Source of the DNA: Isurus oxyrinchus
Taxonomy: Eukaryota
DNA: 64,000 nucleotides
Direction: 5' to 3'
Assembly: GCA_026770705.1 (NCBI GenBank)
Contig: JANJGN010000009.1
Location: 91,388,001-91,452,000 of the forward strand
Below are positions 19,400 through 59,729 of this stretch, piece after piece. The stretch's first letter is position 1, and each line of letters starts with the position of its first letter. The notes under the pieces are model-generated. The model saw only the letters and a list, made by a program, of their open reading frames with translations, did no database searches and was not told where the DNA came from. The position numbers and the translations under genes were made by a program.

Positions 19400-19487
19400 T
19401 TGTCACAATATAATATGAATCTCCCAAGCTATAAGCAAAGGGTTAACTGGACTGCCTTGAAGTATGCTAATGTTATCCTTCTAGAAT

Positions 19488-34402: not shown

Positions 34403-34970
34403 AGCCATGGTGTATTTGGTAGCACTCTCAACTCTAAGTCAGACGATTGTTTTTGAAGATAAAAACAAAAAAACTGCGGATGCTGGAAATCCAAAACAAA
34501 AACAAAAACAGAATTACCTGGAAAAACTCAGGTCTGGCAGCATCGGCGGAGAAGAAAAGAGTTGACGTTTCGAGTCCTCATGACCCTTCGACAGAACTGT
34601 TGAATTGTTGTTGAAGTCCCACTCTAAATGCTTAGGCACAAGGAAGACCCTCAAGTGCAGTAATGAGTGAGTGCTGCACAAGTGCCATCTTCTGGATGAG
34701 ATGTTCAATCGAGGCACTATCTGCCCACTCAGGCAAGTGTGAAAGATCCCATGGCACTATCTGGAACAACTGGACAATGTTTATCCCTCATCCCAGAAAC
34801 AGATCATCTAATCATTATCACATCACTGTTTGTGGGAACTTGCTGTGTGCAAACTGGTTGCCACATTTCCTACATTACAACAGTGACTGCACTTCAAAAG
34901 TGGCTGTAAAATGTCGAGATGCTCTGTGCTGTGAAAGGTGCTACACAAATGCAAGTCCTTATTTCTTTAA
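34403..34970 (+). mobile_element. Deu-domain SINE split by a young Penelope fragment (34459-34603, minus strand)
   Basis: SINE head gtagcactctc...gtcaga, body gtgccatcttctggatgagatg...gatcccatggcactat, tail gtgaaaggtgctacacaaatgcaag. TSD ATTGTT(T/G)TTGAAG at 34446-34458 and 34604-34616. Confidence 0.88.
34560..34598 (-). ncRNA. Minimal type I hammerhead ribozyme-like motif (PLE-borne, CUGUCGA core)
   Basis: Reverse complement AGTT-CTGTCGA-A-GGGTC-ATGAG-GACTC-GAAAC-GTC-AACT: stem I, core, stem II hairpin, GAAA, palindromic ACGU stem III, GUC site. Confidence 0.7.
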
Positions 34971-35278
34971 TGAGGCTGGGTGTCAGCTGTTGTCTGATTG
35001 AGCTCTTGGATAAGCACATTGGCATGATTTACGGCACTAGAGGCGTTATGTAAATATAAAGTGTTATTGTTAATGCATTCTGTGCAGTCAATAAGCCATG
35101 AACGGTCTGTGATGTCCGCCATGGCTTTATTCCTGGAACACGGAATTTCAAACAGAGTGAAGAGCCTCCGTCAGTAATTAATAGCAGCCACGCGGTTTGC
35201 TCTATCTGGTCTGGAACATTAAGATCGATGACTCCCAAAACTGTAGCTCAAGAGAATAAATTGAATTGAAGAAAGGTT

Positions 35279-35302
35279 TATATACGTATATATATATATA
35301 TA
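35279..35302. repeat. (TA)n microsatellite at the start of il13ra1 intron 1
   Basis: tatatacgtatatatatatatata, about 30 nt from the exon 1 donor. Confidence 0.9.
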
Positions 35303-35331
35303 AAAGGTTGGAAAGGAAGGCGCACACTTAC

Positions 35332-35422
35332 CTGACAAGGCACAGCAGTTAAAGCCCTCAGTCCGGGAAATCAGCAAATAGGGCAGCGAGAGCAAAAACA
35401 GTGGGGGTAGCACTCCTGGCAT
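35332..35422 (-). CDS. il13ra1: IL-13 receptor alpha-1-like, exon 1 (signal peptide) MPGVLPPLFLLSLPYLLISRTEGFNCCALS
   Basis: ATG at 35422 with G at -3; a weaker in-frame ATG lies at 35446. Hydrophobic leader, phase-1 donor TCAG|gtaagt matching the phase-1 acceptor of the next exon, locally CpG-rich surroundings. Confidence 0.8.
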
Positions 35423-35750
35423 CTCGCACTTGGTCACCTCCCGCATTCAGCTTGTAGCCACTTTCCTTAGACGGGGTCTGATTCAATCTTTCCCCGATGG
35501 GCAGCGGGGTTCACACGCTCGGCTCAGTCCCCTACTCGATACCAGCTCTCAGCCTTCGCACTGTTTCCCAACCAGCGGAAGAATGTTTTCAAACATTAGT
35601 CATCCAGCACGTCACTGGGGTGTGGGAGGTTTGGAGGTTTTATCTAAACCGCGCTCAGCTATTCCTCATTTATTGTTTTGCTTTCAGGCTGTAACGCCCC
35701 AGCTCTTTCAACACGCATTGCAAAAACAATCTGCTACTAAATAAGTAAAC
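35423..35750 (-). promoter_or_regulatory. Probable 5' UTR and promoter of il13ra1-like gene
   Basis: Repeat-free and CpG-enriched relative to the rest of the window, immediately 5' of the ATG. TSS not determinable. Confidence 0.45.
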
Positions 35751-36009
35751 AAACTTCAAGATCAGTTTAAAACCAGTAAAACTTGGCAATGAATTCAGCT
35801 TATCTGAATTGATCTTGTATACCTTAAAGTGGAACTCCAGCATTACTGAGTTTTGCTGGGAGATGAAAATTTTGGACTGGTTTCTCCCTTCTGTGAAAAA
35901 TTGATAAATCTAACTACGTGTCCAGATATATTAATGGCACCTGGAACCTGGACTTTCCCTCAGAATGCAGCCAAGCCTGCTGTGCACATTTTGAAAACTT
36001 TATTCCTAA

Positions 36010-36365
36010 GACTTATCACTGCCAAGGCTGGTACTTATTGCCCTGAGAAGATGGCAGTGGGGTTTTTTTTCTTGAAGTTGTTTGATACAGAAGAAGCTGC
36101 CCAGAGGTTGTTCATAGTCAGCCAGGTTGAATGCGGGATTAAAGTCAAATAGGTGTCAGGCCAGGTTAAGGACAGCAGGTTTCCTTCCCAAAAGGACTTA
36201 CATGAACATGTCTTTTTCTGGTACATTGTTGCGGCAGCTCCCTGATCACTCTTTTTGAGACCAGCTCTTTCTTTCCAGTCTTATTCAAAACTCAATTCAA
36301 ATTCTCAAATTGGAAATTGAATTCACATGTTCTGGGTTACTAGTCCAGCATTACATCACCATACC
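36010..36365 (-). mobile_element. tRNA-headed SINE, decayed
   Basis: ggccaggttaaggacagcaggtttccttcccaaaagga...ttactagtccagc. Confidence 0.65.
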
Positions 36366-36869
36366 CGCCACCCCACTCCACCCAGCTTAACCAGATAACA
36401 CTGCCTGTCACTCCACTGGGCTGATGAAGGCCAGAGTCGGTGATTCTCCTGTGAGAATTCTAAAGACCCACAACAACAACTTGAGATTGCTACAAGAAGC
36501 CAAACCCAGGAACCTGAATGAAAAGAGACGAATATTTTAAATGAGTTTGGCTTAACCCAGTCTCCAAAAAGCTCACAACTGCATGTAAAAATGAATAGTT
36601 TCACAGCCTTTGTAACCGTAGTGAGGTCAAACATTGCTTTACTTATATAGGCACAAACAAAACAATGTAAGTGACTGTCTAAAGGAGAATATTCCAAAGT
36701 TGAAGGTATAAAATTGGCCAGGCATCTCTAAAAGGGTCTAGTTTCAGGCTTGCTCTGAAGATTCAGATATTCAGATATTGTTTTAGTTAAAATGGGTGCA
36801 TTCTGATTCTTTTGCACTTGACAATTAATTGATTTTATTTAAAAAAAACAGGAAAGGCAAAGTGACACT

Positions 36870-37229
36870 GGTTTTTGTGACTCTGTCACATGAGCAGGGA
36901 CACGTTATAAATGAGATTTAAACATTTTTGTTTGTAATTCCTGTTGGAAACCTCATCCCGACTGTGGATCAGGTTTCATAAAAAATCCAAAGGCCGCTTG
37001 GCCTTTCAGCCCGCCCACTAACCAAATGGTTGGACGGGTAGCGAAAAATCCGATTTAATTAATTGGTTAAGGGCATTAATATGCCTCTTAACTGTCGATT
37101 GGCTCCCTGCCACCTCTTGCACATGCCTGCTGAGTGAAATATTGCAAGTGTGTGCAATGACATTGGGATGCTCGGCAATGTCATCACACACTATTTTACT
37201 CTGTTCAGTCAAGAGAAAAATTCTGTCCT
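36870..37229. mobile_element. Partial Harbinger MITE
   Basis: Ends AAAATTCTGTCC; collinear with 9650-9937. Confidence 0.75.
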
Positions 37230-37352
37230 GGGCGTGTGAATTACATGTGAGTTTCATGCAGATTCCTCCTTGCAGAAATAATTCTTATTTGATAGAAGTC
37301 TGCATTTCCCATATCAGTCTTATTTACTGATGTTTTTTGACATTCAATGCAC

Positions 37353-37926
37353 ACTGGGTTTGCCAACTGGAATGCGCTGCCTGGGAGAGTGGTGGAAGCG
37401 GGTTGCCTCACATCCTTTAAAAAAGTACTTGGATGAGCACTTGGCATGTCATAACATTCAAGGCTATGGGCCAAGTGCTGGTAAATGGGATTAGGTAGGT
37501 AGGTCAGGTGTTTCTCATGTGTCAGTGCAGACTTGATGGGCCAAAGGACCTCTTCTGTACTGTGTGATTCTGTGATTCTGGAACTAAATGTATTCCTGGA
37601 GATTTCATGACATGACTTGCCCCCATGTTCCATCCATTAATTGGCCAACATATCCATCCTTGTGACATACTGCCTTCCTACACCAATTGGAAAGCAAAAA
37701 GACTCATTACCCAATTGGATGATGCTTGACTGTCCGCCAAACAGTCTCTCCTGCACCACCCCGCACCCCCCCCCACCACCCCCCAATTTTCAATATTTTT
37801 AGATCAGGTAAAAGATCTAAAAGAATCCTTTTTAATGTCCTGATAAATTTTCTCCAGGGTTGCACACAGAATTTGATCTTCCATTCCTGGAGATGCCAGG
37901 CCAATCCTGGAGGGTTGGCAACCCTA
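37353..37926. mobile_element. Non-autonomous DNA transposon with a CR1 3' fragment (37367-37577) inserted
   Basis: Ends gggtttgccaac and ggttggcaacccta (imperfect TIR); interior similar to 32130-32300. The insert is nearly identical to 8755-8945. Confidence 0.65.
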
Positions 37927-38904
37927 CATCAAGCATAAACCAGCCAAGGTAAACAATAATGGCATTCAATGGAATGAAAAGCAGTTGATGGGTGTGACCT
38001 GTGATCAAACAGATCCTTGTTTTAGATGTGTCAAAGAGAGATCAAATTACAAAGATGTGGCTTGTCAATGTGGCCTGTTTTAAATATCATGAAAATTGGC
38101 CTGAGGTTCCATCATGCAGGATAATTACTTCCTGCAGGCAGCTGATACTCTCATTGCTAAAGACATTGCAGTCATGAAAATTAAAACAAGCATTCTCCCC
38201 TTTTGAATAAACCCTCAGCCACGCTTTCATTATCTGCAGACTCAATGATTCCAACGGTCTCGTGGTCAGCGTCCCATTTCCTATCTACAAAAAACTAAAG
38301 CGGCAGTTCTCAATCTTTTGGCTTCCCATATTATAAAAAAAAACCTACAGAGGCCTCTGTAACACTGAGTATTTTTGTTGCATAAAAATCAATTGTACAA
38401 TGAAGCATATTTATTATTCGCATCGTTTTACTTTATATGAAATTTGTTGCTGGCTTTCAGCAACAATACTGTCAAAAGATGGAAGATCTTCGACATGACA
38501 TACGTTATGGTCAGTGTTCACCCTAGCTCAGTACTTTGTTTTCATTGTTGTAATCACTGAAAATACAGCTTCACATAAATAGATTTTATGAAATGCACCA
38601 ACATTTTCAATGTTGCAGAAGAAGCAGTGCTGTGCTCGGTTGCACCATTGACAACATGATCTTGCTCATGTGATGTCCGTACACTTGCACATTCCTGCAG
38701 GGGTTCACGGGATGGTACTTAGGAGTGCGAGTCCAGCTGGCTTTATTTTTTCCTTCCAATAGATGTTGGAGGAACTCCTACTGCCATTTGACACAGGCCA
38801 AGTGAGCTCAGCCCAGGGATCTGCAGGCCACTCCTGTTGTTGTATCACATTAGTGCATTTACCCAGCAATTCATCAATGGTGGCCTATAGGTTTACAATA
38901 TAAG

Positions 38905-39618
38905 AGAATGGAATCATAGAATGATTACAACACAGAAGGAGCCATTCGGCCCATCATGTCTGTGGTGACTTTCTGCAAGAGAAAATCAGCTGGTCCCATT
39001 CCCATAGCCCCATATTTTTTTTTTCTCTTCAGAAAATTATTCAATTTCTTTTCGGGAGTCATAATGAAATCTGCCTCCACCATACTCTCAGGCAGTGCAT
39101 TTCAGAGTGGGAAAGGTTGTTCCTCATATGTTCTTTTGCCAAACACCTTATATCATTGTCCTCTGGTTCTCAACACTCCCAGCAATAGGAACAGTTTCTC
39201 TCTAGCTATTTCATATGAACATACAAACATACGAATCAGGAACAGGAGCAGGCCACTTGGCCCCTTGATCCTGCTCTGCGATTCAATAAGATCATGGCTG
39301 GTCTGAATGTAACTTCAACCCCACATTCCTGCCTACCCCCAATAATCTTTCATCCCCTTGTTAATCGTGACTCCATCTAGCTCTGCCTTAAAAATATTCA
39401 AAGACTCTGCTTCGACCACCTTTTGAGGAAGAGAGATCCAAATAACCACAACCCTCTGAGAGAAAAACATTTCTCCTCATCTCTGTCTTAAATGAGTGGC
39501 CCCTTATTTTTAAACAGTGACCTCCTAGTTCCTCTATCAAATCTCCTGCCAATCCTCTCTAGGAGAACAACCCCAGCTTCTCCAATCTATCCACACAATT
39601 GAAGTCCCTCATCCCGGA
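38905..39618 (-). mobile_element. Two nested CR1 3' fragments
   Basis: Outer tail aatcatagaatg...ggagccattcggccc; inner 39213-39530 atatgaacatac...ggagcaggcc. Confidence 0.75.
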
Positions 39619-39619
39619 C

Positions 39620-40036
39620 CTCTGCATTTTTTGGAAACCTCATCCATGGGTGGGATGAGGTTTCCAAAAGAAAATAACAATAAGTTTTAAAAATTAATTA
39701 ATATGTCCCTGCTCGTGTGACAGAGTCACATGAGGGGACATGTTTCATTACATTTTTAATTTCTTCATTTTAAAAAAAAAATCCTTCCTCTCCCTGAAGC
39801 AGCTCTGTGCCTCAGGGAGGTTATGCAGCACTCACCCATGCGCATGCGTGGAGTTCGCACTCAGCCCGCTTGGCCTCTTCCCCTGGTCCGCACAAGCAGT
39901 ATTCAGCACTGCTGCTTGCATTCCATGCTGGGCAGGCCTTAACTGGCCCGCTAGTGTGAAGTTATGATCCAGTCCCGATTGCGGGCAGCAGTCGGCTTCC
40001 CAACCACCCCCACCTGCCAAGGGCAAAATTCTGCCC
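39620..40036. mobile_element. Partial Harbinger MITE
   Basis: Ends AAAATTCTGCCC; collinear with 13610-14047; contains two internal palindromes. Confidence 0.8.
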
Positions 40037-40039
40037 AGT

Positions 40040-40440
40040 ATTCCAGTTGTGGCCAAAATAGTATGTTATAAAGTTTCATAATCATTTCCTTGTTTTTGTT
40101 ATCTCTGCCTTTATATGTATGTAAAGCTTAGGGTCCCCAGAGGGTCTCAACCTTTCCTGCCACCTTCAACTTTTCTGCACATATACCCCAGGTCACTCTG
40201 CTCTTTCCTCTTTCACCCTCTTTAGAATTGTCCTTTTTATTTGATATTGCTCTCCTTGTTCTTCCCACCAAAAACTATCACTTCACAATTCTCTGCATTA
40301 AGTTTCATATATTGATGGGTGTATCCATTCCATCAGAGTGCTTATGTCCTCTTGCGGTCGATCTTCCTCATGGTTCTCAAAACTTCCAAGTTTTCTGTCA
40401 TCTGCAGGTTTTGAAATTGTGCCCTTTACACCCAAGTCTA
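40040..40440 (-). mobile_element. CR1 RT fragment
   Basis: LGVKGTISKPADDRKLG (KFADDTKLG-like). Confidence 0.7.
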
Positions 40441-40997
40441 GGGGCTGAATTATATCGGGGGGCGGACTTCTTGCCACTACCCCCCACCCCCACCATACCC
40501 CCAGCCTCCACCCCTGGAAGGAAAGTTGGCCGGTGGCCAACACACCAGAAAGAAGCCCGCACCACAGCCAAAATGTGCTGCTGGAAAGCTAAACTAGCTG
40601 AGATTGGGACTCAGTGGGAGGAGACTTGCCAGCCAATCTGATAGCAGCTCTAAAAGTGCTGGCAGTGCTAGATCATAGTGGACATTGCCAGGACTGTAAG
40701 GAGGAACAGGGAGAAGAGTGATGGCTGCTGGAGACAGGTAACCCCCGGACTTTTAGGGTGGGGAAGGATCTCAGAGCCCACAAAGAGGGGAGGGGGGTGG
40801 AGGGCTGGATTTTGGAGGAATGAAGGCAAGTGGGGTGGGGTGGGGCAGGTAACATCTTGGGGGGGGTGCCCCTGATGCGATATTTCCTGAATGATGTGGC
40901 CCCCCTTCCTTCCCACCCTTTTTCAACCTGTGAAAACCAATCAAATCAAAGGCATTTTTATGGATTTTGATTTTCAAATAAGGCTATATATCCTGTA

Positions 40998-41430
40998 TAA
41001 AAGCAAAATACTGCGGATGCTGGAAATCTAGAACAAAAACAAAAATACCTGGAAAAACTCAGCAGGTCTGACAGCATCTGCAGAGAGGAACACAGTTAAT
41101 GTTTTGAGTCCAAATGACTCTTCATCAGAACTAAAGAAAAATAAGAAAGAGGTGAAATATAAGCTGGTTTAAGGGGGGAGGGGGGGGGGGGGGGGGGCGC
41201 GGGGGGGGGGGGGGGGGGGGGGGGTGGGACAGGTAGAGCTAATATCACTACCACGTCAACACCTCTTTGTCCCTTTGTCTATGACATCTTTTGGCAATCT
41301 CCGTCTATCACTGACCCTCTCTACCGGTCCCACCTCCCCCCCCCCCCCCCCTTAAACCAGCTTATATTTCACCTCTTTTCTATTTTTCCTTAGTTCTGAT
41401 GAAGAGTCATTCGGACTCGAAACATTAACT
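40998..41430. mobile_element. Fold-back Penelope terminal element with two hammerhead motifs
   Basis: Inverted arms with poly-G and poly-C; 14-bp TSD CTATATATCCTGTA at 40984-40997 and 41429-41442. Confidence 0.88.
41392..41430 (+). ncRNA. Minimal hammerhead ribozyme-like motif with canonical CUGAUGA core
   Basis: AGTT-CTGATGA-A-GAGTC-ATTCG-GACTC-GAAAC-ATT-AACT; perfect 5-bp stem II; a G>A change in stem III probably impairs it. Confidence 0.65.
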
Positions 41431-41519
41431 ATATATCCTGTAATTACTTTTGGTGGATCTTTTGAAACATTCTTGTGGATCCCTAGGGGCCACAGACCCT
41501 AGGTTGGGAATCCCCAAAT

Positions 41520-41890
41520 GAACTTGAGTTCATTCAGAACTCTGATGCCTGTATTCTAATTCACGCCAAGTCCTATTCACTAATCACCCTCTGCTTGCTG
41601 ATCCACATCGGCTCCCAGTCCAGCAAAACCTTGATTTTAAAATTCTCTTCCCCCTGTTTAAATCCCAGCATAGTCATGCCATTCCCTATCTCTGTACCCT
41701 CCTCCAGTTCCACAGCTTCCTGAGATCTCTGCACTCCTCCAGTGTTGGCCTCTTGGTCATCCCTGATTTTTCTCGCTCCATCATTACTGTTTTCAGCTGG
41801 CTAGCTTCCAAGCTCTGGTACTGTTTTGCCAAGCATGTCTGTCTCTCCACTCTGACCTTCTCCATTAACACACTCCTTAAAACCTGCTCT
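41520..41890 (+). mobile_element. L2 3' fragment
   Basis: caccaagtcc...tcaccc...ggctcccagtccagc...ttgattttaaaattctc (ITP...HWLPV...FKIL-like). Confidence 0.75.
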
Positions 41891-41899
41891 TGTAATGAC

Positions 41900-42190
41900 A
41901 ATATTTATATGGCTGGTCTAATCAAGTTTCTGGTCAATGTTAATTCCTAAGATGATGATGGTGGGGGATTCACTGAGGTGATTAGGCTTTTTCTTATTGG
42001 AGGTGGCCATTCCCTGGATGTGAGACATGAATGTTATTTGATACTTATCAGTCAAAGTCTGGATGCTTTCCAGCTCTTGCTCCATGTGGGCATGGAGTGC
42101 TTCATTAATTGTAGCATTGTGAAGAAGCTCACTGTACAATCATCAGCAAAAATACCCACTTCTAGCCTTATGATGGAAGGAAGATCAATG
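41900..42190 (-). mobile_element. Family B LINE RT fragment
   Basis: Similar to 1490-1815 (gtttctggtcaatg...ccttatgatggaaggaagatca). Confidence 0.75.
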
Positions 42191-42199
42191 GTTTACCTT

Positions 42200-42641
42200 C
42201 TAACTCCATCATCTTCAAAGCACAAATTAATTCAGTGAGACCAGTTGGCTCACGGTGGACAAGCATTTGGGAGCGGTTGATGAGAAATCCATAGAAACTT
42301 GGTTTGAGAGTGTGGTGTGTCTGATCACAGTTCATCCATTTACATGGGCTATATATTTACTGTGAACATTAGTGTATAAAATAGGTTTTGTATCATGTCA
42401 CTATGAATTTGTATATATATTTGTAAAGGTTGAGGTGAAGGAGTAGTGAAATAAAGTTCATCTTTTCTTGTTCGATAAATGTTTTATTCTTTTGTTAAAA
42501 GTTCATCAGCTGACTCCGGTGACTCTGTGCAGTTACCACCCTCCACGTTTCTAAACAAAACATAAAAGTTAGGATCCATCAAGCCAGGTTCCACACTGGG
42601 ATCTGACTTGTCCAGTAGTAACATCAGCTGGAATCATAACA
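42200..42641 (+). mobile_element. Possible LTR 3' portion
   Basis: AATAAA-containing T-rich region ending GGAATCATAACA. Confidence 0.4.
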
Positions 42642-42644
42642 GTA

Positions 42645-43000
42645 GGGTAGGAGGTGAGTAGCGTGGCAGCTGCATAGCATGGCAGCTGGGTAGAGTGGTA
42701 GATGGATAGGGTGTCAGCTGGGTAGGGTGGTAGTTGAGTGAGGAGGCAGGTGGGTAGGGTGGGAGGTGGGTAGGATGGCAGCTGGATGGAATGATAGGTG
42801 GGTGAGGTGGATAAGGTGAGTAGTCAGGTCAGGAGTGAGGGGATTGTCAGGTCAGGGGCTAGTCAGGTCTGGTTGTGGGGGAGGGTAAATTGGGGTTCAG
42901 GGGTCAGCTGTCTTATGAACAGGTAATAATGGGACTAGACCATAAAGCTGAAGGAGGGTGGTCAGGTTGGGTAGGGTGGGAGTTGAGAGGTTGAGGGAGG
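42645..43000 (+). repeat. G-rich degenerate tandem repeat (GGGTAGGGTGGCAGCT-like)
   Basis: Repeated gggtagggtgg/gtcagg motifs. Confidence 0.6.
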
Positions 43001-44017: not shown

Positions 44018-44084
44018 CACTTTTACTGATACCACCTTCTTATTCCAGATACATTATTCAGAATTCAAATTCTAAAGCTGCACA

Positions 44085-45875: not shown

Positions 45876-45877
45876 TT

Positions 45878-47262: not shown

Positions 47263-47269
47263 AAACTAT

Positions 47270-47710
47270 TTCTCCTGCTGGGAGAATCAAGATACAGTCA
47301 TAACATTCAGGATTGAAATCAGGAAGTCAGGCATCACTACGAAAGACTAATCCTCTTTCTCTCTCCACAGATGCTGTCAGACATGCTGGGTACTTCCAGC
47401 ATTTTCTGGACATTTGATGTTAAATCTCCAGCATCTATAGTATTTTACTCTTGCATTGAAATTAGGAAGTATTGTTTCACATGAATATAGTAGAAATCTG
47501 GACTAAAGTGTGGGGCTGGGGGGGGTGTTGGGGGGAGCAATTGGAGCCTTCAAGGCTGACATTAATAGAGTTTTGTTGGGCAAGAGTATTAAGAGATATT
47601 GAACAAAGGTGAGAGATTGGAGTTAGGGGCAGATCAGCCATGGTCTAATTGAATGGTACAGCAGACTTGAGGGGATGAATGGTCTGCTCCCATTCCTGTT
47701 TTCATGTATC
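47270..47710 (+). mobile_element. CR1 3' end carrying a Penelope terminal fragment (about 47335-47450)
   Basis: ttgaaat(c/t)aggaagt on both sides of ctctccacagatgctgtcagac...; CR1 3' UTR follows. Confidence 0.65.
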
Positions 47711-49349
47711 CCAGCATTTCATTTGCTTTTTAACAGCTTGCCCATATAAAAATACAGAGTCTATTAGCCTTCTCGTTCTTCTTGAGCTGATTATATTTCT
47801 TACACTGTACAAATATATTGCCCACTCTTTATCTCAGTGCATAATACACAGTTGTTGGCAACTACTGTGAAACCTATCATTAGTCATATTGTCAGATAGT
47901 TTCTGCAGTTTGGATCTTAATATTTTCTTGCTCTGCTCTGTTGCTTTTTGAAAAACCTTCAACAATGGGAAGACCCTGGGCTAGATTTTCAGAGTTCGGC
48001 TGGACCACCACCCCCCCAACCCCATAATTTTCTTGGAGTCGGGCCAGGTTCTCGAGGGCTTGTAGTTCATGGCCCCTCAGAGAATTTGTAAACCATAGTC
48101 GGGATTCGGGAACAGTTTGATAGGTATGTTTGAAAGGTCTTACCCATGCCCCCACCTTGTCCCATGCCCCCTTCCTTGTCCCATGCTCCCCTGCATCCTT
48201 TATGTCCACTCACCCAGTGTGCACTATAGGACAAACATATAATAACAATGGCAAGTCTTCAAATGAAATTTTTAAAAAATCCATCCAGAAACTAGCTTTG
48301 ATAAAACTGCTGCTCTTATAACTCAAGTGTCAATCTGACAGAGTCATTATAGGATCAACAAGCTCTCAGGTCGCACCTCTTAATCTTGTCCAAATAAACA
48401 CACAGACATTGAAAGAAAGAGTTCAAAGAAAGACTAATATGACTTTATAAAGATGTCAGTCAATCAAAGACTCCACTTCCACACAGACCTTTGCTGAGCT
48501 AATCCATTAATGAGTCTTAGAGCTCAGCCAACCCTTCATTATAAGGCACCTGAAGAAACAGGTATCTGGCCATCCTTAGGGCTAGGTTGAGCTCCAAGAC
48601 TCACTAATGGATTAGCTCTGCAGGGGCCTGGAGTGGGCACAGAGGCATGGAGTTGACACGGAGGAGCCATGGGGGGTAGCATGGGGAATTGGTGGGGTGG
48701 GGGTTGAGGGGTGAGGGCCTGAAGGCCTAATAGCCTTTAACACAACTGGGACAAAGTCCGAGAACAAAGATGGGCATCCTGCCTTGACATTCACCCGCCT
48801 CCCTCTGAACTGTCTCCAGAGGTAGTGGGCTTGACTCCATCCTGGAGTGGAATGAAAATACCCAGTGGGGAGAGGCCCTTTTAAAGGAGTCGGGCCTGCT
48901 AAGTCGGGAAATTTCCCAACCCGAGCATTCCACCTCGATGGGGGAGGTGTGCAATAGAGTGCGCAAATAGGAAGAGAGCGGGTATTGCCCTTGCATGAGA
49001 TTTAAAGGTCAGAATTAGGGGACAAACAGCAGCTTGAGGCATGGGAGAGTGGACTCAAATATGGAATAATTCTGTAAAATTATAAAAGGGGCTGTTGGGC
49101 ATTCCCAATATTATATCAACAATCTTTCTTCTAAAGGGCAATCCCACAATGGAACAACTTGCCAAAGGACACAGTCACAGCCCCACACTGAAAATCTTCA
49201 AGACCCATCTTTAGATTATTTCCATTGAAAAGTTTTCATTATCAGGACTACCATCACAGCAGCTCATGCCTGGTTTAGCTAGCACTACCATATGTTGGTG
49301 GAATATGGGTATTCATCTGTGATACTGACGCAACTAAAATAGGAGGATT

Positions 49350-52300
49350 AAAAACAGAAAATGATGGGCCTGGCAGCATCTATGGAGAGAGAAACAGGGT
49401 TAAGGTTTTGAATCCATATGACCCTACTTCAGAGCTAAAGAAAAGGAGAAATGTGATAGGTTTGATACTATTTAAGAGGAGGTGGAGCAGGTGAAGCAAG
49501 ATGGGAAGGTCAAGGATAGGTCGGTAAGGGATAGGTCATGTTAAGGACTAAAGAAGGTGCTGATAGTGGCAGAATGTGTTAATAGCTGAACAAGGGCGAG
49601 TGCTCTGTGAAAGCACAACACAGGCCTGAATTTTTCCTGCGTCGGGCGGGCTCAGCGGGAGCGGGCGCTCCGCACCTGATTTCATGTGGGTGGGCCAATT
49701 AAGGCACGCCCCGTGTGGATCGCGAGTGGTAGCACTGAGGCTACCTGTGCGGACGGGGGGAGCGGGGAGAGTGGGCCTGGTGCACAGTTTGAGAATGCGC
49801 GTGAAAGAGCACTTCAATCTCCCTGGGACACTGAGCTGCCTTAGGGAGATTGAAGTGCGTTTTGAAAAAATTAATAAATGCAATAAAAATTCAATGAAAC
49901 ATGTCCCCTCATGTGACTGTGTTACATGAGATGGGACACGTTTTTAATTTCAAAAGAACGTTTTTATTTAATTTGTAATACCTCCAGGAAACGTCATCCC
50001 ACTCGTGGATGATGGAGAATACTGGATGCAGGTGAAAGGATCTATTGAATAGGGGGAGGACTCCTGCCCAACGTAGTAAACATGGAGGCGAAGGCAACGG
50101 AAGAAGAGTTCACATCATGTCGAGCCCGAAATTCATTGAGGTAAGCGGAGTACAGAATGTTCAGCATCAGAGAGGGGAAGGTTTGAGGGTATAGTGAGTA
50201 CATGGCAAGGGCTGGCATTGGAAGGGATGGGTCAGAGGGACAGGAAGGAGGGGGGGGAGGGTCCCAGGTGGGCATTGGTATCCCAACAGGACCTGTTGAA
50301 CTCCTGCTCAACAGATCCTTTCACCCACCTCCAGTATTCTTCCTCTGCCTGGACTCCTCCCTCTGGCCTCTTCCCTGCTCTTGATCATTTCATTGAGAAT
50401 TGTCAGCGTGACATCGGCCATCTTAATTTCTCTGCCCCTCTCACCCACTCCAACCTGTCTCCTCCTGAACTTGCTGCACTCGGTTCTCTCAAGTCCAACC
50501 CTGACATTGTTATCAAACCTATCGACAAGGGTGGTTGTTGTCCAGGGTACTGATCTCTACCTTGCAAAGGCTGAATGCCAACTCTTAGACACTTCCTCCT
50601 ACATCCCCCTGGACTGTGACTCCACCACTGAACATCAAGTCATTTTTTCCAGGACTGTCACTGACCTCATCTCCTCTGGAGGTCTTCCCTCCACAGCTTC
50701 CAACCTCATGGTCTCCCAACCCCAGATAGCCCGCCTCTACCTCCTTCCCAAAATGCAAATAGGACTGTCCTGATAGACCAATCGTGTCAGCCTGTTCCTG
50801 CCCCGTGGAACTAATTTCTTCCTATCTCCACGTCCAGTCTCTTTCCACCTACATCTGCAATTCCTCTGATGCCCTACATCATATTAACAGTTTTCAGTTC
50901 CCTGGCCCTAACTGCCTTCATGGACATCCAATCCCTCGACACCTCCATCCCCCACCAGGACATTCTGAGGGCTCTTTGCTTCTTTCTTGAACAGAGGCCT
51001 GAACAATTGCCACCCATCACCACTCTCCTCTATCTGGCTGGATTTGTTCTCTCACTGAACAATTTCTCTTATAACTTGTTGCACTTCCTTCAAACTAAAG
51101 GTGTGGCTATGGGTATCTGCACGGGCCCCAGTTATGCCTGTCTTTTTGTGGGGTATGTGGAAAATTCATTGTTCCAGTCCTACTCAGGCCCCCTCCCACA
51201 ACTTTTTTTAAAATCGGTACATCAGTGACTGCATCGGTGCTACTTCATGCTTTCATCTGGACCTGGAAAAATTTATCAATTTTGCTTCCAATTTCCACCT
51301 CTCACTTTCACATGGTCCATCTCTGACACTTCCCTTCCTTGACCTCTCTGTCTCCATTTCTGGTGATAGACTGTCCATCAATATTCATTACAATCCCAAT
51401 GACTCCCAAAGCTACCTCGACTACAGCTCCTCATACCCTACCTCTTGTAAAAACTCCATCCCATTATCCGAGTTCCTCTGCCTCCGTTGCATCTGTTCCA
51501 ATGATGCCACCATCCAAAACAGCACTTCTGACATGTCTTCCTTTTTCCTTAACCAAGTTTTCTCCCACATTGTGGTTGACAGTGCCCTCAACTGTGTCCA
51601 ACCTGCACCCTTGCTCTCACCCCTTCCCCTCCCTCCCAAAACCATGATAGGGTCCCCCTGGTTCTCACTTTTTACCCCGCCAGCCTCCACATTCAAAGGA
51701 TCATCCTCCGCCATTTCCACCAACTCCAGCATGATGCCACCACACATCTTCCCCTCCCTGGTGGCATAATGTAGGGGCCTCTGTGACATCCTGGTACACT
51801 CCTCTATCCTCCCAACACCTCATCCCCTTCCCAAGGCACCTTCCCATGCAATCGTAGAAGGTGCAACGCCTGCCTGCCCCTTTACCTCCTCCCTCCTCGA
51901 GGCCCCAAACACTCCTTTCAGATGACGCAGCACTTCACTTGCACCTCCTTCAATTTGGCCTACTGTATTCGCTGCTCCCATTGATGTCTCCTGTACATTG
52001 GGGATACTAAACACAGACTGGGTGACGGCTTTGTGAAACACCTTTGCTCAGTCCACAAGCATGACCCAGACCTCCCTGTCGCTTGCCATTTCAACACACC
52101 ACCCTGCTCTCAAGCCCACATGTCCGTCCTTGGCCTGCTGTAATGTTCCAGTGAAACCCAACGCAAACTGGAGGAACAGCACCTCATCTTCCGATTAGGC
52201 ACTTTACAGCCTTCCGGACTTACACATTCAACAACTTCAGACAATGAACTCTCTCCTCCATCCCTACACATTTTTTAATCCAATTTTAAATTTTTTAATA

Positions 52301-52783
52301 TTTTTAATTTTAACTTTTATTTTTATTCTTATTTATTTTCATCTTTATTTATTTATTCAATTTTTAAAAATTCTTTTTCCTCAACCCCCCACCCCACCCC
52401 AACCCACAGGACCATCTGTCCCTTGTTTCTATATTGTGCTTTCAGAGTGCTCATCCTTATTCAGCTATTAACACATTCTGCCACCATTAGGACCTTTAGT
52501 CTTTACCATTACCATGAACACTCCCTTTGTCTTGTGTTCATGACATCCTTGTCAATCTCTCCTTAGTCCCACCTATCCCTCACCTTCTATCCATCTTCAC
52601 TTGCTCCACCCCCTCTTAAACAGTATAAAATCTGTCACATTTCTATTTCTCTTTAGCTCTGAAGAGTCATACAGACTCAAAACGTTAACTTAATTTCTCT
52701 CTCCACAGATGCTGCCACTCCTGCTGAGTTTGCCCAGCATTTTTGGTTTTTATTTCAGATTTCCGTCATCTGCAGTATTTTCA
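49350..52783 (+). mobile_element. Penelope-like element (RT plus GIY-YIG endonuclease, decayed) with inverted 5' segments
   Basis: NPDIVIKPIDKGG, LYLLPK, FMDIQSLDTSIP, NNFSYN...QTKGVAMG..GPSYACLFVG, YCIRC...LYIGDTKHRL; pLTR at about 52450-52783; 49350-49620 and 50011-50300 are inverted. Confidence 0.9.
49623..50012. mobile_element. Partial Harbinger MITE inside the PLE
   Basis: Starts GGCCTGAATTTT; reverse-collinear with 39620-40036. Confidence 0.8.
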
Positions 52784-55075
52784 CAGAATCAAAACAGCAC
52801 AGGAGGCCATTCGGCCCAGCATGTCTGCACCATCTCTCCAAATGGGCATTATGACCTAGTGCCATTGTCTTGCCTTTTCCCTGTACCCTTGCACATCGTT
52901 TCTATTCAGATAATCATCTAATGGCCTCTTGAATGTCTCGATTGAACCTGCCTCCACCACCCTTCCAGGAAGTGCATTCCAGACCCAAACCACTCGCTGT
53001 GTAAAAAAATTTTCCTCTCGTCACACTTGCTTCTTTTGCAAATCACCTTAAATCTGTTTCCTCTCAGTCTTGATCGTTTTATGAGTGGCTTCTCCCTATC
53101 TATGTCTAGCCCCCTCATGATTTTGAGAATCTCTATCAAATCACCTCTCAGCCTTCTTCTGTCCAAGGAAAACATCCCAACCTCTCCAATCCTTCATCGC
53201 TGAAGTTTCTCATCCCTGGGATCATTCTTGTAAACTTCTTCTGCACTCTCTCCAATGTGTTCACATCCTTCCTATAACATGTTGCTCAGAAATTTACACA
53301 ATACTCCAGCTGAGGTCTAACAAGTGTCTTATATAAATTCAGCATAACCTCCCTGCTCTTGTACTCTATGCCCCCATTAACAAAGTCCAGGATACGATAT
53401 GCTTTATTAACTGCTCTCTCCACCTGTCCTGCCACCTTAAATGATCTATGCATATATACATCAAAGTCTTTCTGCTCCTGCACCCCCTTCAAAATTCCAC
53501 TCCTTATTTTGTATTGTCAGTCCATGTTCTTCCTACCAAAACGCATCACCTTAGACTTCTCCACATTGAACTTCATCTGCCACCTATCTGCCCACTCCAC
53601 CAACTTGACTATGTCCTCTTAAAGTTCTACACTGTCCTCCTTGCAGTTCACAACACTCCCAAGCTTCGTATCACCTGCAAACTTTGAAATTGTCCCCTGC
53701 ACACCAAGATCTAGATCATTAATATATTATCAGGAAAAGCAAGGATCCCAATACCCATCCCTGGGGAACTGCACTACAAAGCTTCCTTCAGCACGAAAGA
53801 TATCCATTGGCCATTACCCTCCGCTTCCTATTTTTTAGCCAATTCTGTATCCACGTTACTACAGCCCCTTTTATTCCATGAGCAATAACTTTTCTCACAA
53901 GCCTGTTGTGTGGCACTGTATCAAATGCCTTTTCAAAGTCCATGTACACCACATCACAGCAGTACCCTCAAAGACCTTTTCTGTTACCTCTTCAAAAAAC
54001 TTCAGCAAGTTAGTTAAAAACAATTTCCCCTTTAGAAATCCATGTTGGCTTTTCCTTATCAACCCATATTTTTTCATTTGACTACTAATTCTATCTGGAA
54101 TAATTGTCTACAGAATCCTGCCCACCACTGAAGTTAAACTGACTGCTCTGTAATTGCTCAGCTTATTTTATGACCTTTCTTGAACAAGGGCATAATGTTT
54201 GCAATTCTCCAGTCCTTTGGTACCATCCCTGACTCTAGGGAAGACTGAAAGATTATGTCCAGTGCCCCTGCAATTTCTACTCTCACTTCCTCCAACATCC
54301 TTGGATACACCTCATCCGGTCCCGGTGCCTTGTTAACTTTAAGTATTGACAGTCTATTCAACGCTTCCTCCTTATCAATTCTGAACCTTTCTAGTGACAG
54401 AGTTTCCTCATCTGTCACCATGACCTGGGTAGCATCTACTTCCTTGGTAAAGACGGATGCAAAGTATTCCTTTAATACCTCAGCCACAGCCCCTTTGTCC
54501 ATGTGTAAATTCCCTTTTAGGTCCCTAATCAGCCCTACTCCTCCTTTTACTATTTATATGCCTTTAGAAGACTTTGGGATTCCCCTGTATGTTGGCTGCC
54601 AGTCTTTCCTCATAATTCCTCTTCACTTCTCTAATATGCTTTTTCACCTTCCATCTGAAATTTCTGTATTCCTCTTGGTTGTCAATTATATCTTGTACCT
54701 GACACCTGTCATTAGCGCACTGTTTCTTTTTTATCTTAATTTCTATCTCCTTTTTCATCCAGGAAGCTCTGGACTTGTTTGTCCTACCTTTCTCTTTCGA
54801 TTGAATATACCTTGACTGTGCCCGAACCAGTTCTTTTCGGAAGGTAGCCCATTGTTCAGCTACAGTTTTTCCTGCCAATATTTTGTTCCAGTCTATTTGG
54901 CCCAGCCCTGTTCTTGCCCCTTCAAAGTCGCCTCTTGTCCAGTTAATTATTTTTACTCTGGATTGCAAATCGTCCTTTTCTATCATCATCCTAAAACGTA
55001 CAATACAATGATCACTGTCTCCTAAATGATCCCCCACTGCCTCATTTCCAAGAAACAGGTCCTATAGTGCATCTT

Positions 55076-55466
55076 AAACAAAAACAGAATTACCTGGAAA
55101 AACTCAGCAGGTCTGGCAGCATCGGCGGAGAAGAAAAGAGTTGACGTTTCGAGTCCTCATGACCCTTCGACAGAACTTGATTTCGAGTCCAAGAAAGAGT
55201 TGAAATATAAGCTGGTTTCAGGTGTGTGCGGGGGGGGGGGGGGGGGGGTGGGGGTGGGGGGGCGGAGAGATAGAGAGGGAGAGAGGTGCTTGTGTAGACA
55301 AACAAGCAGTGATAGAAGCAGATCATCAAAAGATGTCAGTGACAATGGTACAAAAGAACACATAGGTGTTAAAGTTAAAGTTGGTGATATTATCTAAACG
55401 AATGTGCTAATTAAGAATGGATGGTAGGGCACTCAAGGTATAGCTCTAGTGGGGGTAAACACCACA
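55076..55466 (-). mobile_element. Young Penelope pLTR fragment inserted in CR1 ORF2
   Basis: Perfect 16-bp TSD TCCTATAGTGCATCTT at 55060-55075 and 55467-55482. Confidence 0.92.
55139..55177 (-). ncRNA. Minimal hammerhead ribozyme-like motif (CUGUCGA core)
   Basis: Identical 39-mer to 34560-34598 and 59632-59670. Confidence 0.7.
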
Positions 55467-57788
55467 TCCTATAGTGCATCTTTTCTTGTTGGATTGGACA
55501 CATGCTGCTGTAGAAAATTCTCCTTAACACAATCTAAGAACTTTTGCTCCTCTCCACCCTTTACACTACCACTGTCCCAGTCTATAATTGGGTAAGTAAA
55601 GTCCCCCATTATAACCACTCAATATGGTCTGCATCTCTCTGTAATTTCCCTGCAGATTTGTTCTTCCAGGCCCTTCTCACTAGTTGGTGGCCTATAGGCT
55701 ACACCGAGCAATGTAATTGCACCTTTTTGTTCCTTAGCTCTAGCCAAATTGATTCTGTCCTTGAACCCTCTGGAACATCCTCTTTCTCCTCCGTTGCAAT
55801 GCTCTCCTTAACAAATACCACCACCCCTCCACTTTTCCAATCTCTTCTGAACACTTTGCACCCAGGAATATTTAACACCCACTTCTGCCTTTCCTTGAGC
55901 CAGTTCTCTGTTATCGCCACAACATCATTATCCCATATGGTAACCTGCACCTATAACTCCCCAATCTTATTTACTACACTCCGTGCATTCACATACATGC
56001 ATAGAAGCCCTGATTTAGATTTTGTTAATTTCTCCCTTACTCCGACTTTACCTATTAACTTACTATTCTCTATACTAGTGCTATCTGTCCCTCCCAGTAT
56101 TTTGTGCACCCTGGTATTCTTCTCTAATATTTTTTCTTGGTTCCCACACCCTTGCCGAGTTAGTTTATAGCCCTCCCACAGCACTAGCAAAATGTCCTGC
56201 AAGGAACTCAGTCCCGGCTCTGTTCAGGTGCAGCCCATCCAGCTTGAAGAGGTGCCATCTCCCCCAGAGCCAGTCCCAGTGTCCCAGGAATCTAAAGCCC
56301 TCTCTCCTGCACCATCTTTCCAGCCATGCATTCATCTGCCTTATCCTCCCATTTCTGCACTCACTGGCATGTGGCACTGGGAGTAATCCGGAGATTACTA
56401 CATTTGAGGTTCTGCTTGTTAATTTTTAACATAGCTCCCTAAATTCTCATTGCAAGACCACATCCCCCTTCCTACCCAAGCCATTGGTACCAATGTGGAC
56501 CATGAACTCTGGCTGATCACCCTCCCCCAGAAGAATGTCCTGCAGCCGCTCTGTGACACCAGGGAGGAAACATATTATCCTGGAGTCACATCTACAGTCA
56601 CAGAAACACCTGTCTGTTTCCCTAACCAATGAATCCCCCATCACTATTGCTCTTCCTTTCTTCTTCCTCCCCTCCTGTACAGCCCAGCCACTCGTGATGC
56701 CACAAACTTGGCCCCGACTGCACTCCTCTGATGAACCATCATCCTCACCAGCTTCCAAAACAGAAAACCAATTTGTGAGCGGGACCCTAGGGGACTCCTG
56801 CACTACCTGCCTACTTCTCTTGGACTACCTGTTAGTCACCTATTTCTCGCTGACTCCAGGCCCTTAAGCTGCGGTGTGACCACCTCTCTGAATGTGCTAC
56901 CCATGGAGCTCTCCGCCTCGTGAATGTGCCACAGTGACTCCAGCCGTCGCTCGAGCTCTGAAACCCAGAGCTCAAGTTTCCGCAGCTGACAGCACTTCTT
57001 GCATATGTGGTCATCCAGGACACTGGTAGCATCCATGACTTTGCACATATTACAGGACACACATTACCCTGCCATGTCTTAGCTTTACTTCCCTTACATT
57101 AACTTTATTCTACTTTGGATTATTTATATTACTTTATTACATTGGCCCTAAACTTCCCTGATCATTGGTGCTTTGCAGTTAAATCCAAATATAGGAACTT
57201 TAAAAATATTACACTTCTCTAATTTACTTACCAGTTCCTATTTACCGAGGCTGCTGCGCTTCTTTGAGAAAAGGTAGAAAAGGAAAGGAGCACCTCCTCC
57301 CTCAATCATCAAACTCCAACGGAAGCACTCTACTGCAGCCAAAAACAGCACTCCAGTGCAGTCAAATTCAGCAATATAAGATATCCTACTTTTATACTCT
57401 CTGAACCTAACCTCTGAAAACCTGATTGAACCAGTTATCGAATTAACTAGTTGCAGTTGCAAGCAAAGCCTGCATGAGCCCTGTTTTAAAGCTGGACTAT
57501 TCACAGGTTCTAATCTTATCTTCAATATGACCTCCTAGAACCTGCTTCTATTGCAGATCCTTAGTTTTAATGTGTAAGTGCCCTTACTATAGAGAAATGT
57601 TTAATAAAGCTATTAGAAGTAAAAAAAAACTCACTTTCCAACCCTAACAGCAACTTTTACTTAATTGCTAAATTAAAAAAAAGACTAGACTTTAAATAGA
57701 ATTTAACCCTTAAACTCCCTGTCACCAAATTCCAACTGAAGCTCTCTAGTGCAGTCAAACACAGCGCTCCAGTGCTTTCATGAACGTA

Positions 57789-59729
57789 ATGAAAACAAAA
57801 AACTGCGGATGCTGGAAATCCAAAACAAAAACAGAATTACCTGGAAAAACTCAGCAGGTCTGGCAGCATCGGCAGAGAAGGAAAGAGTTGATGTTTCGAG
57901 TCCTCATGACCCTTTGACAGAACTGAGTGAATATTAGAAGAGGGGTGAAATATAAGCTGGTTTAAGGGTGGGGGGGGGGGGGGCGTAGGCAGAAGTGGGA
58001 GGGGGCAGTGTGGTTGTAGGGTCAAGCAAGCAGTGATAGGAGCAGATAATCAAAAGATGTCACAGACAAAGGAACAAAGAAGTGTTGAAGGTGGTGATAT
58101 TATCTAAACGAATGTACTAATTAAGAATGGATGGCAGGGCACTCAAGGTACAGCTCTAGTGGGGGTGGGGTGGAAAGACTAGCAGGGCATACAAGATTTA
58201 AAAATAATGGAAATAGGTGGGAAAAGAAAAATCTATATAAATTATTGGAAAAAACAAAAGGAATGGGGAAGAAATGGAAAGGGGGTGGGGATGGAGGAGG
58301 GAGTTCAAGATCTAAAGTTGTTGAATTCAATATTCAGTCCGGAAGGCTGTAAAGTGCCTAGTCGGAAGATGAGGTGCTGTTCCTCCAATTTGCGTTGGGC
58401 TTCACTGGAACAATGCAGCAAGCCAAGGACAGACATGTGGGCAAGAGAGCAGGGTGGAGTGTAAAAATGGCAAGCCACATGGAGGTTTGGGTCTTTCTTG
58501 CGGACAGACAGCAGGTGTTCTGCAAAGCGGTCACCCAGTTTACGTTTGGTCTCTCCAGTGTAGAGGAGACCACATTGGGAGCAACGAATGCAGTAGACTA
58601 AGTTGGGGGAAATGCAAGTGAAATGCTTGTTTCACTTGAAAGGAGTGTTTGGGCCCTTGGATGGTGAGGAGAGAGGAAGTGAAGAGGCAGGTGTTACATC
58701 TTTTGTATGGGCATGGGGAGGTGCCATAGGTAGGGGTTGAGGAGTAGGGGGTGATAGAGGAGTGGACCTGGCTGTCCTGGAGGGAACGATCCCTACGGAA
58801 TGCCGCCGGGGGGGTTGAAGGGAAGATGTGTTTGGTGGTGGCATCATGCTGGAGTTGGCAAAAGATGCAAGACCTGCCCCTTCACTTCCTCTCTCCTCAC
58901 CGTCCAAGGGCCCAAACACTCCTTTCAAGTGAAGCAACATTTCACTTGCATTTCCCCCAACTTAGTCTACTGCATTCGTTGCTCCCAATGCGGTCTCCTC
59001 TATATTGGACAGACCAAACGTAAACTGGGTGACCGCTTTGCAGAACACCTGCTGTCTGTCCGCAAGAAAGACCCAAACCTCCCTGTCGCTTGCCATTTTT
59101 ACACTCCACCCTGCTCTCTTGCCCACGTCTGTCCTTGGCTTGCTGCATTGTTCCAGTGAAGCCCAACGCAAATTGGAGGAACAGCACCTCATCTTCCGAC
59201 TAAGCACTTTACAGCCTTCCGGACTGAATATTGAATTCAACAACTTTAGATCTTGAACTCGCTCCTCCATCCCCACCCCCTTTCCATTTCTACCCCCTTC
59301 CTTTTGTTTTTTCCAATAATTTGTATAGATTTTTCTTTTCCCACCTATTTCCATTATTTTTAAATCTTGTATGCCCTGCTAGTCTTTCCACCCCAACCCC
59401 ACTAGAGCTGTACATTGAGTGCCCTGCCATCCATTCTTAATTAGTATATTCGTTTAGATAATATCACCACCTTCAACACTTCTTTGTTCCTTTGTCTGTG
59501 ACATCTTTTGATTATCTGCTCCTATCACTGCTTGCTTGTCCCTACAACCACACCCCCCGCCCCCCCACCCCCCACTTCTCTCCCCCCACCTTAAACCAGC
59601 TTATATTTTACCCCTCTTCTAATATTCACTCAGTTCTGTCGAAGGGTCATGAGGACTCGAAACGTCAACTCTTTTCTTCTCCGCCGATGCTGCCAGACCT
59701 GCTGAGTTTTTCCAGGTAATTCTGTTTTT
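57789..59729. mobile_element. Fold-back Penelope element: inverted GIY-YIG plus pLTR arms
   Basis: 57823-58700 is the reverse complement of 58864-59729. VYCIRCSQCGLLYIGQTKRKLGDRFAEH. Flanking 13/15 direct repeat GCTTTCAT(G/T)AA(C/T)GTA at 57774-57788 and 59730-59744. Confidence 0.93.
59632..59670 (+). ncRNA. Minimal hammerhead ribozyme-like motif (CUGUCGA core)
   Basis: AGTT-CTGTCGA-A-GGGTC-ATGAG-GACTC-GAAAC-GTC-AACT in PLE sense orientation. Confidence 0.7.

What the first reader, a model, noticed from the sequence alone, without database searches (positions are those of the whole stretch)
34560..59670. Young Penelope subfamily carrying a non-canonical (CUGUCGA) minimal hammerhead ribozyme
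Seen: an identical 39-mer, AGTT-CTGTCGA-A-GGGTC-ATGAG-GACTC-GAAAC-GTC-AACT, at 34560-34598(-), 55139-55177(-) and 59632-59670(+), with a fourth copy carrying two G>A changes at 57886-57924(-). It has type I hammerhead topology with a 4-bp stem I, 5-bp stem II, loop-less palindromic ACGU stem III and a GUC site. Established: PLE termini carry minimal hammerheads that cleave as dimers. Unusual here: the normally conserved core A6 (CUGANGA) is U in all four copies, and there is an extra A before stem II. A sister subfamily in the same window (41392, 41094, 62004) keeps CUGAUGA with a different stem II loop. Inference: a recently active lineage either tolerates or compensates for A6U, or no longer needs self-cleavage.
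Basis: partly seen in the sequence, partly recalled or inferred. Interest (0 to 1): 0.75.

Follow-up and report, generated by a model that had tools for sequence, protein, structure and literature searches.

The report
Shark Penelope hammerhead lacking core A6
An abundant family of Penelope-like jumping genes in a cartilaginous-fish-type genome has spread while carrying a hammerhead-ribozyme-shaped RNA motif with U in place of a normally fixed core A, which likely weakens self-cutting and would make the family a natural test of whether these elements need to cut their own RNA.

Summary
The 39-mer is identical at three sites; the fourth copy has two CpG-type G>A changes, one at core G8. The copies end three Penelope-like (PLE) insertions with target-site duplications, one beside a GIY-YIG fragment, so U6 came from the template. 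In public contigs of two coded organisms, A6 stays below 2% of depth, while position 7 is about half U: the family core is CUGUYGA and is abundant, not a rare dead branch. The extra A before stem II is not unusual (54 of 56 published PLE hammerheads). "Young" is only partly supported. Published changes in this core strand give low activity, and PLE insertion in vitro does not need cleavage. Best reading (0.55): a weakened hammerhead, tolerated because cutting is dispensable, inside a module kept for other roles. Two sub-lineages 10% apart upstream share 99 of 99 module bases. Cleavage is untested. The scan noted shark PLE hammerheads on other DNA before, but not this core. Lünse 2017 could not be read.

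The parts
59632..59670 (+). U6 minimal hammerhead motif (C3 at 59636, U6 at 59639, predicted cut after C17 at 59666)
58859..59730 (+). 5'-truncated PLE arm: GIY-YIG 3' end (58860-59250, one private 2-nt deletion), 3' UTR, hammerhead motif, short end without tail
57789..58858 (-). Inverted 5'-truncated PLE arm, head-to-head with the plus arm: CX4CxxC linker, GIY-YIG (one private 1-nt insertion), 3' UTR, motif, about 35-nt tail found on this arm only
57886..57924 (-). U6 motif with CpG decay at G8 and G16.2
57773..57781 (.). 9-nt target-site duplication, partner at 59729-59737
55076..55466 (-). Second U6 insertion (about 390 nt); upstream UTR 133/147 identical to the 59632 arm, motif plus tail 99/99; 16/16 duplication at 55060-55075 and 55467-55482
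55139..55177 (-). U6 minimal hammerhead motif
34459..34598 (-). Third U6 insertion: 140 nt, begins at the first base of stem I and includes the tail; 12/13 duplication at 34446-34458 and 34604-34616
34560..34598 (-). U6 minimal hammerhead motif
59604..59633 (+). Putative 3' splice acceptor (80% pyrimidine tract then CAG) whose AG is the first two bases of stem I; inferred from sequence only
   Evidence: precedent in D. virilis
40998..41430 (.). A6 sister subfamily: one inverted insertion with motifs at 41094-41132(-) and 41392-41430(+), 14/14 duplication; comparison group
62004..62089 (+). Degraded A6 sister copy

Best explanation
These are ends of a high-copy Penelope-like retrotransposon subfamily whose template RNA carried a minimal hammerhead-shaped motif with U at core position 6; the motif likely cleaves weakly or not at all, and the lineage likely spread anyway because insertion would not depend on self-cleavage. 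Shown: the motif lies on the coding strand behind a GIY-YIG endonuclease fragment; U6 sits in three insertions with target-site duplications and dominates the family in two coded organisms. Inferred: the element protein binds the module that starts at stem I and reverse transcription starts at one of two sites in the tail (giving the short and tailed ends seen here), as shown for the anole element; the stem I-to-tail module stays conserved for RNP recognition, priming and leader or splice functions, with at most residual dimer- or protein-assisted cutting after GUC.
For: U6 in 4 of 4 copies from 3 insertions with duplications of 16/16, 12/13 and 9/9. In contigs laid at >=80% likeness (54,571, 63,238 and 4,107 records in X1, X2, X15), position 6 shows only T>C at 4.2/4.3/0.9% of summed depth. 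The tool's tally holds one T>A place in X1, which is 59673, and none in X2 or X15, so A6 is under 2%. Position 7 is C>T 50/42/37% against G8>A 2.0/4.0/0.1%. A natural A6C hammerhead has kobs below 0.1 per min (PMC3088659, passages). In a type III hammerhead all single and double mutants of the CUGA region except the C3-G8 swap had low activity (PMC9901934, passages). In the anole PLE, hammerhead-dead mutants insert normally in vitro and no RNA-seq reads ended at the cut site (PMC11167929, parts 1-2). Naiad PLEs lack canonical hammerheads yet can outnumber those that have them (PMC8557442, passages). The frameshifts of the two arms are at different places, consistent with a coding-competent template.
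Against: The rest of the core and the stems are not decaying at template level. Listed changes >=2% inside the 39-mer are CpG sites, position 6, free position 7, loop II, or changes that keep a pair (10.2 G>A, 11.3 C>T, stem I C>T), which is the pattern expected of a ribozyme still under selection; 6 rows were hidden and few variants are involved. Two sub-lineages differ at 20 of 184 upstream sites but 0 of 99 module sites (Fisher p=1.5e-4); this fits selection on the whole module or a module swap. No paper read gave a rate for A6U itself. The mutagenesis data come from other hammerhead scaffolds, and the insertion data from a Poseidon element in vitro. Depth shares are not copy numbers, X1 and X2 were incompletely counted, and A6 sister families are clipped out by the alignment.
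Confidence: 0.55

Rival explanations
1. The U6 motif is a working ribozyme at the rate the element needs: dimer formation and the element protein rescue it, and U6 trades core contacts for relief of an inactive fold in which core bases 4-8 pair with 15.2-1.1.
For: All other core and stem positions look held at template level; module frozen across sub-lineages. In the 39-mer the native U6/C7 form has MFE -7.3 against -11.3 kcal/mol with A6/C7, and the gap from two monomers to the hammerhead dimer is 4.5 against 12.5 kcal/mol. The anole PLE hammerhead cleaves only with protein. A6C retains low but detectable activity.
Against: The same inactive helix can form in a canonical A6 PLE hammerhead (Acropora row), so it is evidently tolerated. 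In 103-115 nt of native context stem II is predicted with probability under 0.1, and folding z-scores are near 0. No second-site rescue in pairwise mutagenesis. No two-sided stem change, 0 of 9 pairs.
Confidence: 0.25
2. The motif is dead and the U6 copies are passengers: the module was fixed by one founder and spread by template switching or by mobilisation in trans by A6 elements, so its uniformity reflects recent common descent and not selection.
For: Identity between the 55139 and 59632 copies jumps from 84-90% to 100% exactly at stem I; a 140-nt insertion begins there; contigs show loose ends at 59632 in 3 of 3 runs with coverage. Intact A6-type sister insertions lie in the same window.
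Against: The U6 inverted insertion carries GIY-YIG sequence whose frameshifts are private to each arm. Template-level variants inside the family fall on tolerated positions. The boundary also coincides with a putative splice acceptor, which would explain a change in constraint.
Confidence: 0.17
3. The resemblance to a hammerhead is incidental, or U6 arose after insertion.
For: No Rfam hammerhead hit; no folding signal over shuffles.
Against: Position behind a PLE endonuclease, match to every other feature of the published PLE consensus, A6 sisters 32/39 identical, three independent insertions, none in 30 of 30 shuffles.
Confidence: 0.03

Closest known systems
Minimal type I hammerheads (min-HHR) of metazoan Penelope-like elements (Cervera and De la Pena 2014, PMC4209133; main text parts 1-2 of 4 and supplement parts 1-2 of 3 read)
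   Same: Location in the terminal repeat, short stem I, extra base between 9 and 10.1, G10.1-C11.1, palindromic C-G at 15.2/16.2, GAAA and UH; dispersed solo copies and opposite-strand pairs.
   Different: U at position 6: 56 of 56 representatives in Fig. S3 have A6 (their descriptor fixed the core, so it could not have found U6). The only core variant they describe is U3-A8. No cartilaginous fish is among the 56.
Natural A6C hammerhead of phage Bcep176 (Perreault 2011, PMC3088659; passages read)
   Same: A natural substitution at core position 6.
   Different: C and not U; a single phage locus, measured at kobs below 0.1 per min. Here the change is near-fixed in a high-copy retrotransposon family, with a minor C6 share of about 4%.
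Anole Poseidon element PAc (Frangieh 2024, PMC11167929; parts 1-2 of 4 and passages read)
   Same: Hammerhead followed by a 30-40 nt optional tail marking two RT start sites; two kinds of end are seen here too.
   Different: Canonical-type core, protein-assisted cleavage shown; Poseidon clade without the zinc-finger linker. The ATG in stem II loop here opens only 18 codons.
Neptune-type C-terminal EN+ PLEs of cartilaginous fishes (P0001, P0002, P0004, P0006: Mobula, Hypanus, Leucoraja; P0003, P0005, P0008: Rhincodon)
   Same: GIY-YIG with CX4CxxC linker and CxxC...H...H pattern; 59-77% identity over 43-91% of the 99-aa query.
   Different: Their hammerhead cores could not be retrieved, so whether U6 occurs in those hosts is unknown.

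Membership tests
Penelope-like element (EN+) | C-terminal GIY-YIG endonuclease | tested here: met
   PF01541 E 4.1e-5, 24.2 bits over cut-off 22.6, at 58860-59156; 8 chondrichthyan-type homologues; tblastn to both arms
Penelope-like element (EN+) | Telomerase-related RT upstream of the endonuclease | tested here: inconclusive
   U6 copies are 5'-truncated and match only the C-terminal part of homologues; the homologues and an older neighbour at 50920-52224 extend into the RT region
Penelope-like element (EN+) | Inverted 5'-truncated copy adjacent at the 5' end; 30-40 nt tail at one end only | tested here: met
   Arms 57789-58858(-) and 58859-59730(+), about 35-nt tail on the minus arm only; feature per PMC8557442
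Neptune clade | CX2-5CxxC zinc-finger linker before the endonuclease | tested here: met
   CX4CxxC in the minus-arm translation; definition. Shared with Nematis in reduced form, so not exclusive
Neptune clade | RT phylogeny | not tested
   No RT in the U6 copies
PLE minimal type I hammerhead | Core strand CUGANGA (A6) | tested here: not met
   U6 in 4 of 4 copies; A6 under 2% of depth in 3 of 3 covered runs
PLE minimal type I hammerhead | Extra base between 9 and 10.1, G10.1-C11.1, GAAA, palindromic 15.2/16.2, UH site, stems I and II | tested here: met
   Descriptor passes 3 of 4 copies; consensus; 48 of 49 stem cells paired in 7 rows
PLE minimal type I hammerhead | Stem covariation | tested here: inconclusive
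   0 of 9 pairs with a change on both sides, 3 one-sided; 7 rows, two of them partly misaligned
PLE minimal type I hammerhead | Self-cleavage as a dimer | not testable with these tools
   Only contigs covered the motif; they cannot show RNA ends
Rfam hammerhead families | Covariance-model match | tested here: not met
   No hammerhead family among 19 matches at E<=5; the A6 sister copies were missed too, so the test is insensitive to minimal motifs

The most novel reading that the evidence does not exclude
A catalytically competent hammerhead with a CUGUYGA core: dimer- and protein-assisted, held by selection in a very large vertebrate retrotransposon family, with U6 removing an inhibitory fold. 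It would break an accepted core invariant and point to a class of genomic hammerheads that CUGANGA-based searches cannot see.
Probability: 0.22. Interest if true: 0.68.

Novelty: new variant of a known kind. Interest (0 to 1): 0.42.

Why it matters
The role of PLE hammerheads is still open (PMC7761336, passages; PMC8557442). A family that amplified massively with U at a core position, beside an A6 sister family in the same genome, is a ready-made comparison. If U6 is dead, it is in vivo evidence that hammerhead-bearing PLEs can spread without cutting and that the fold has another job. If U6 cuts, the hammerhead core consensus and the descriptors built on it are too narrow.

Tried and rejected
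No whole genome was held, so no genome-wide copy count or subfamily tree. Rfam gave no hammerhead hit. Degenerate motif scans of metagenome and viral contigs: 0 hits. Tail 21-mer scans: 1, 1 and 0 hits in metagenome, genome and viral contigs; both hits have unrelated flanks and are chance. Searching proteins with the antisense reading of the motif, to type position 6 in other hosts, found nothing real (2 unrelated repeat proteins). Raw-read run X21 (organism D) laid 0 reads and is no test. X15 is only guessed to be RNA, so expression is not shown. The ATG in stem II loop and the ATG in the tail close after 18 and 10 codons, so coding constraint on the module is not supported in these copies. 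A half-motif just upstream of the 55139 copy was considered as a permuted hammerhead and dropped because stem I cannot close. 18 long stop-to-stop frames elsewhere gave no Pfam family. Paper searches for a U6 core (listings of 2, 25 of 663 and 20 of 56 papers; one hit opened was chance) and for sharks with PLE hammerheads found no description. Lünse 2017 and Arkhipova 2017 were not held, and bioRxiv supplements were closed; these may describe position-6 variants.
Full report
Observation. The core pattern matches four places, three exactly and one with a mismatch, and none of 100 shuffles gives a match. The fourth copy has G8>A and G16.2>A, both CpG transitions. A minimal-hammerhead descriptor with position 6 free returns only the three intact U6 copies and nothing in 30 of 30 shuffles. 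Rfam returned no hammerhead family among 19 matches at E<=5, but it also missed the A6 sister copies, so this says little.

What the copies are. 57789-58858(-) and 58859-59730(+) are two 5'-truncated arms joined head to head, 94.6% identical over 888 columns, with a 9/9 target-site duplication and a tail of about 35 nt on one arm only. This matches the published PLE insertion layout (PMC8557442, passages). The plus arm encodes a GIY-YIG fragment (PF01541, E 4.1e-5) on the same strand as the motif. The minus arm shows a CX4CxxC linker, which points to the Neptune type. The 8 homologues found are 59-77% identical; those named come from rays, a skate and whale shark, so the host is inferred to be a cartilaginous fish. 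The copies at 55076-55466(-) and 34459-34598(-) are separate insertions with 16/16 and 12/13 duplications. There are thus three events, not four, and U6 was in the template each time. The frameshifts in the two arms are at different places, consistent with a coding-competent template.

How common U6 is. No assembly was held, so I used public runs. Of 24 listed, 14 hold at least half the sampled words of the plus arm, in coded organisms A and B. I laid 4 of the 24 on 59590-59734 at 80% likeness. X1 (A), X2 (B) and X15 (A, guessed RNA) laid 54,571, 63,238 and 4,107 contigs; X21 (organism D) laid none. At position 6 the only listed change is T>C (4.2, 4.3, 0.9% of summed depth). The tool's tally of places at 2% or more has one T>A in X1, accounted for by 59673, and none in X2 or X15, so A6 is under 2%. 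Position 7 is C>T in 50, 42 and 37% while its CpG partner G8>A is 2.0, 4.0 and 0.1%, so U7 is a template variant and the family core is CUGUYGA. Limits: depth is not copy number, X1 and X2 were read to 48% and 88% and incompletely counted, 6 rows were hidden, and A6 sister families are clipped at 59678 and do not enter these shares. The variant is not a rare dead branch.

What is not unusual. The base between A9 and stem II is part of the published consensus CUGANGAH, present in 54 of 56 representatives (PMC4209133, main text parts 1-2 and supplement parts 1-2). The palindromic CG and short stem I are also standard. All 56 have A6, but their descriptor fixed the core. 'Young' needs qualifying: the arms differ at 32 of 872 aligned bases and CpG sites are 5-14% decayed in X1 and X2. 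The A6 sister insertion has an equally perfect 14/14 duplication.

Is the motif still constrained? The 55139 and 59632 copies differ at 14 of 147 UTR sites and 6 of 37 sites just upstream, but at 0 of 39 motif and 0 of 60 tail sites (Fisher p=1.5e-4). The A6 sister differs about evenly across all segments (80-89%). So either the module from stem I onward has been frozen, U6 included, or it was swapped between sub-lineages. The boundary coincides with a pyrimidine tract and AG in 5 of 7 copies examined (75-95% pyrimidine; the 55139 copy has 60% and the 34560 copy, which starts here, 50%). In D. virilis the PLE intron ends at helix I, so a splice acceptor is a reasonable but untested reading. 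Within the family the listed non-CpG variants fall on position 6, position 7, loop II or pair-preserving changes. Across 7 window copies 48 of 49 stem cells pair, with no two-sided change; that is too few to test covariation.

Likely effect of U6. G5 and A6 stack after the turn in the core (PMC11300833, passages). A natural A6C variant cuts at under 0.1 per min (PMC3088659, passages). Pairwise mutagenesis of a type III hammerhead found low activity for all changes in the CUGA region except the C3-G8 swap, with no rescue (PMC9901934, passages). I found no measured A6U rate. Minimal PLE hammerheads are already slow as dimers. In the anole element the ribozyme needs protein, dead mutants insert normally in vitro, and no reads ended at the cut site (PMC11167929, parts 1-2). 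Naiads thrive without canonical hammerheads. Hence the best explanation (0.55): a weakened hammerhead tolerated because cutting is not needed for insertion, inside a module kept for protein binding, priming and leader functions.

Rivals. An active variant (0.25): in the 39-mer, A6 would complete a 5-bp inactive helix (MFE -11.3 against -7.3 kcal/mol native; gap to the hammerhead dimer 12.5 against 4.5), so U6 could ease folding. Against this, a canonical Acropora motif can form the same helix, native context does not favour stem II and z-scores are near zero. A dead passenger spread by swapping or in trans (0.17) fits the sharp boundary and the 140-nt copy but not the private frameshifts. Chance resemblance is 0.03.

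Comparison and novelty. The element is a PLE of probable Neptune type (RT not available). The motif works like a PLE minimal hammerhead in architecture but fails the A6 criterion, so I file it as a variant and not a member of the canonical consensus. Position-6 variation in nature has a precedent (A6C), and PLE core variants are known (U3-A8). My searches found no U6 core in print (listings only), but Lünse 2017, which by its title describes numerous PLE hammerhead variants, and Arkhipova 2017 were not held, and could remove the novelty. Other papers seen: PMC6765202, PMC6155905, PMC7761336 and PMC11014351 (passages), bioRxiv 2026.07.22.740005 (part 1 of 5 and passages; one chondrichthyan sampled with standard models), bioRxiv 2026.07.27.740603 (passages, irrelevant). 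Earlier scan notes report PLE hammerheads in shark-type genomes on other DNA; the word CUGUCGA occurred in none, and look-ups by sequence, place and further words returned nothing.

Verdict. Real, family-wide and testable, with function unmeasured: new variant of a known kind, interest 0.42.

Noticed in passing
window 50920-52790(+) and 49345-49640(-): An older PLE with RT-side and GIY-YIG homology (40-55% identity to ray proteins) ending in a motif with 3 core bases deleted near 52655; a related inverted end lies at 49345-49640.
   Followed up: partly
window 59632 (and equivalent in sister copies): Stem I begins with the AG of a splice-acceptor-like context; the 140-nt copy starts here and contigs show loose ends and strand-switch joints at this base.
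   Followed up: partly
window 55178-55192(-): A partial repeat of the motif's 3' half lies directly upstream of the 55139 copy; a similar loose-end consensus appears in X1 and X2, so it marks a sub-lineage.
   Followed up: partly
window 41392-41430(+) versus 59632-59670(+): Between the A6 and U6 families positions 7 and 16.2 both change (U/A versus C/G) in a way that keeps the predicted inactive rod helix; may be CpG decay or chance.
   Followed up: no
window 59639-59640: Minor shares of C at position 6 (about 4%) and G at position 7 (about 6%) in X1 and X2 suggest further small sub-lineages; linkage not available.
   Followed up: no
window 41429-41430: The plus arm of the A6 inverted insertion stops at the 3' end of stem I, with no tail, directly at the target-site duplication.
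   Followed up: no
window 15900-16030, 19480-19725, 21320-21450, 47346-47450, 20080-20151: Further decayed PLE end fragments; 19480-19725 is an inverted pair.
   Followed up: partly
window 10974-11532, 19161-19397, 42652-42810: Minisatellites with 33-nt (16.9 copies), 35-nt (6.8 copies) and 16-nt-based units.
   Followed up: no
   Followed up: no
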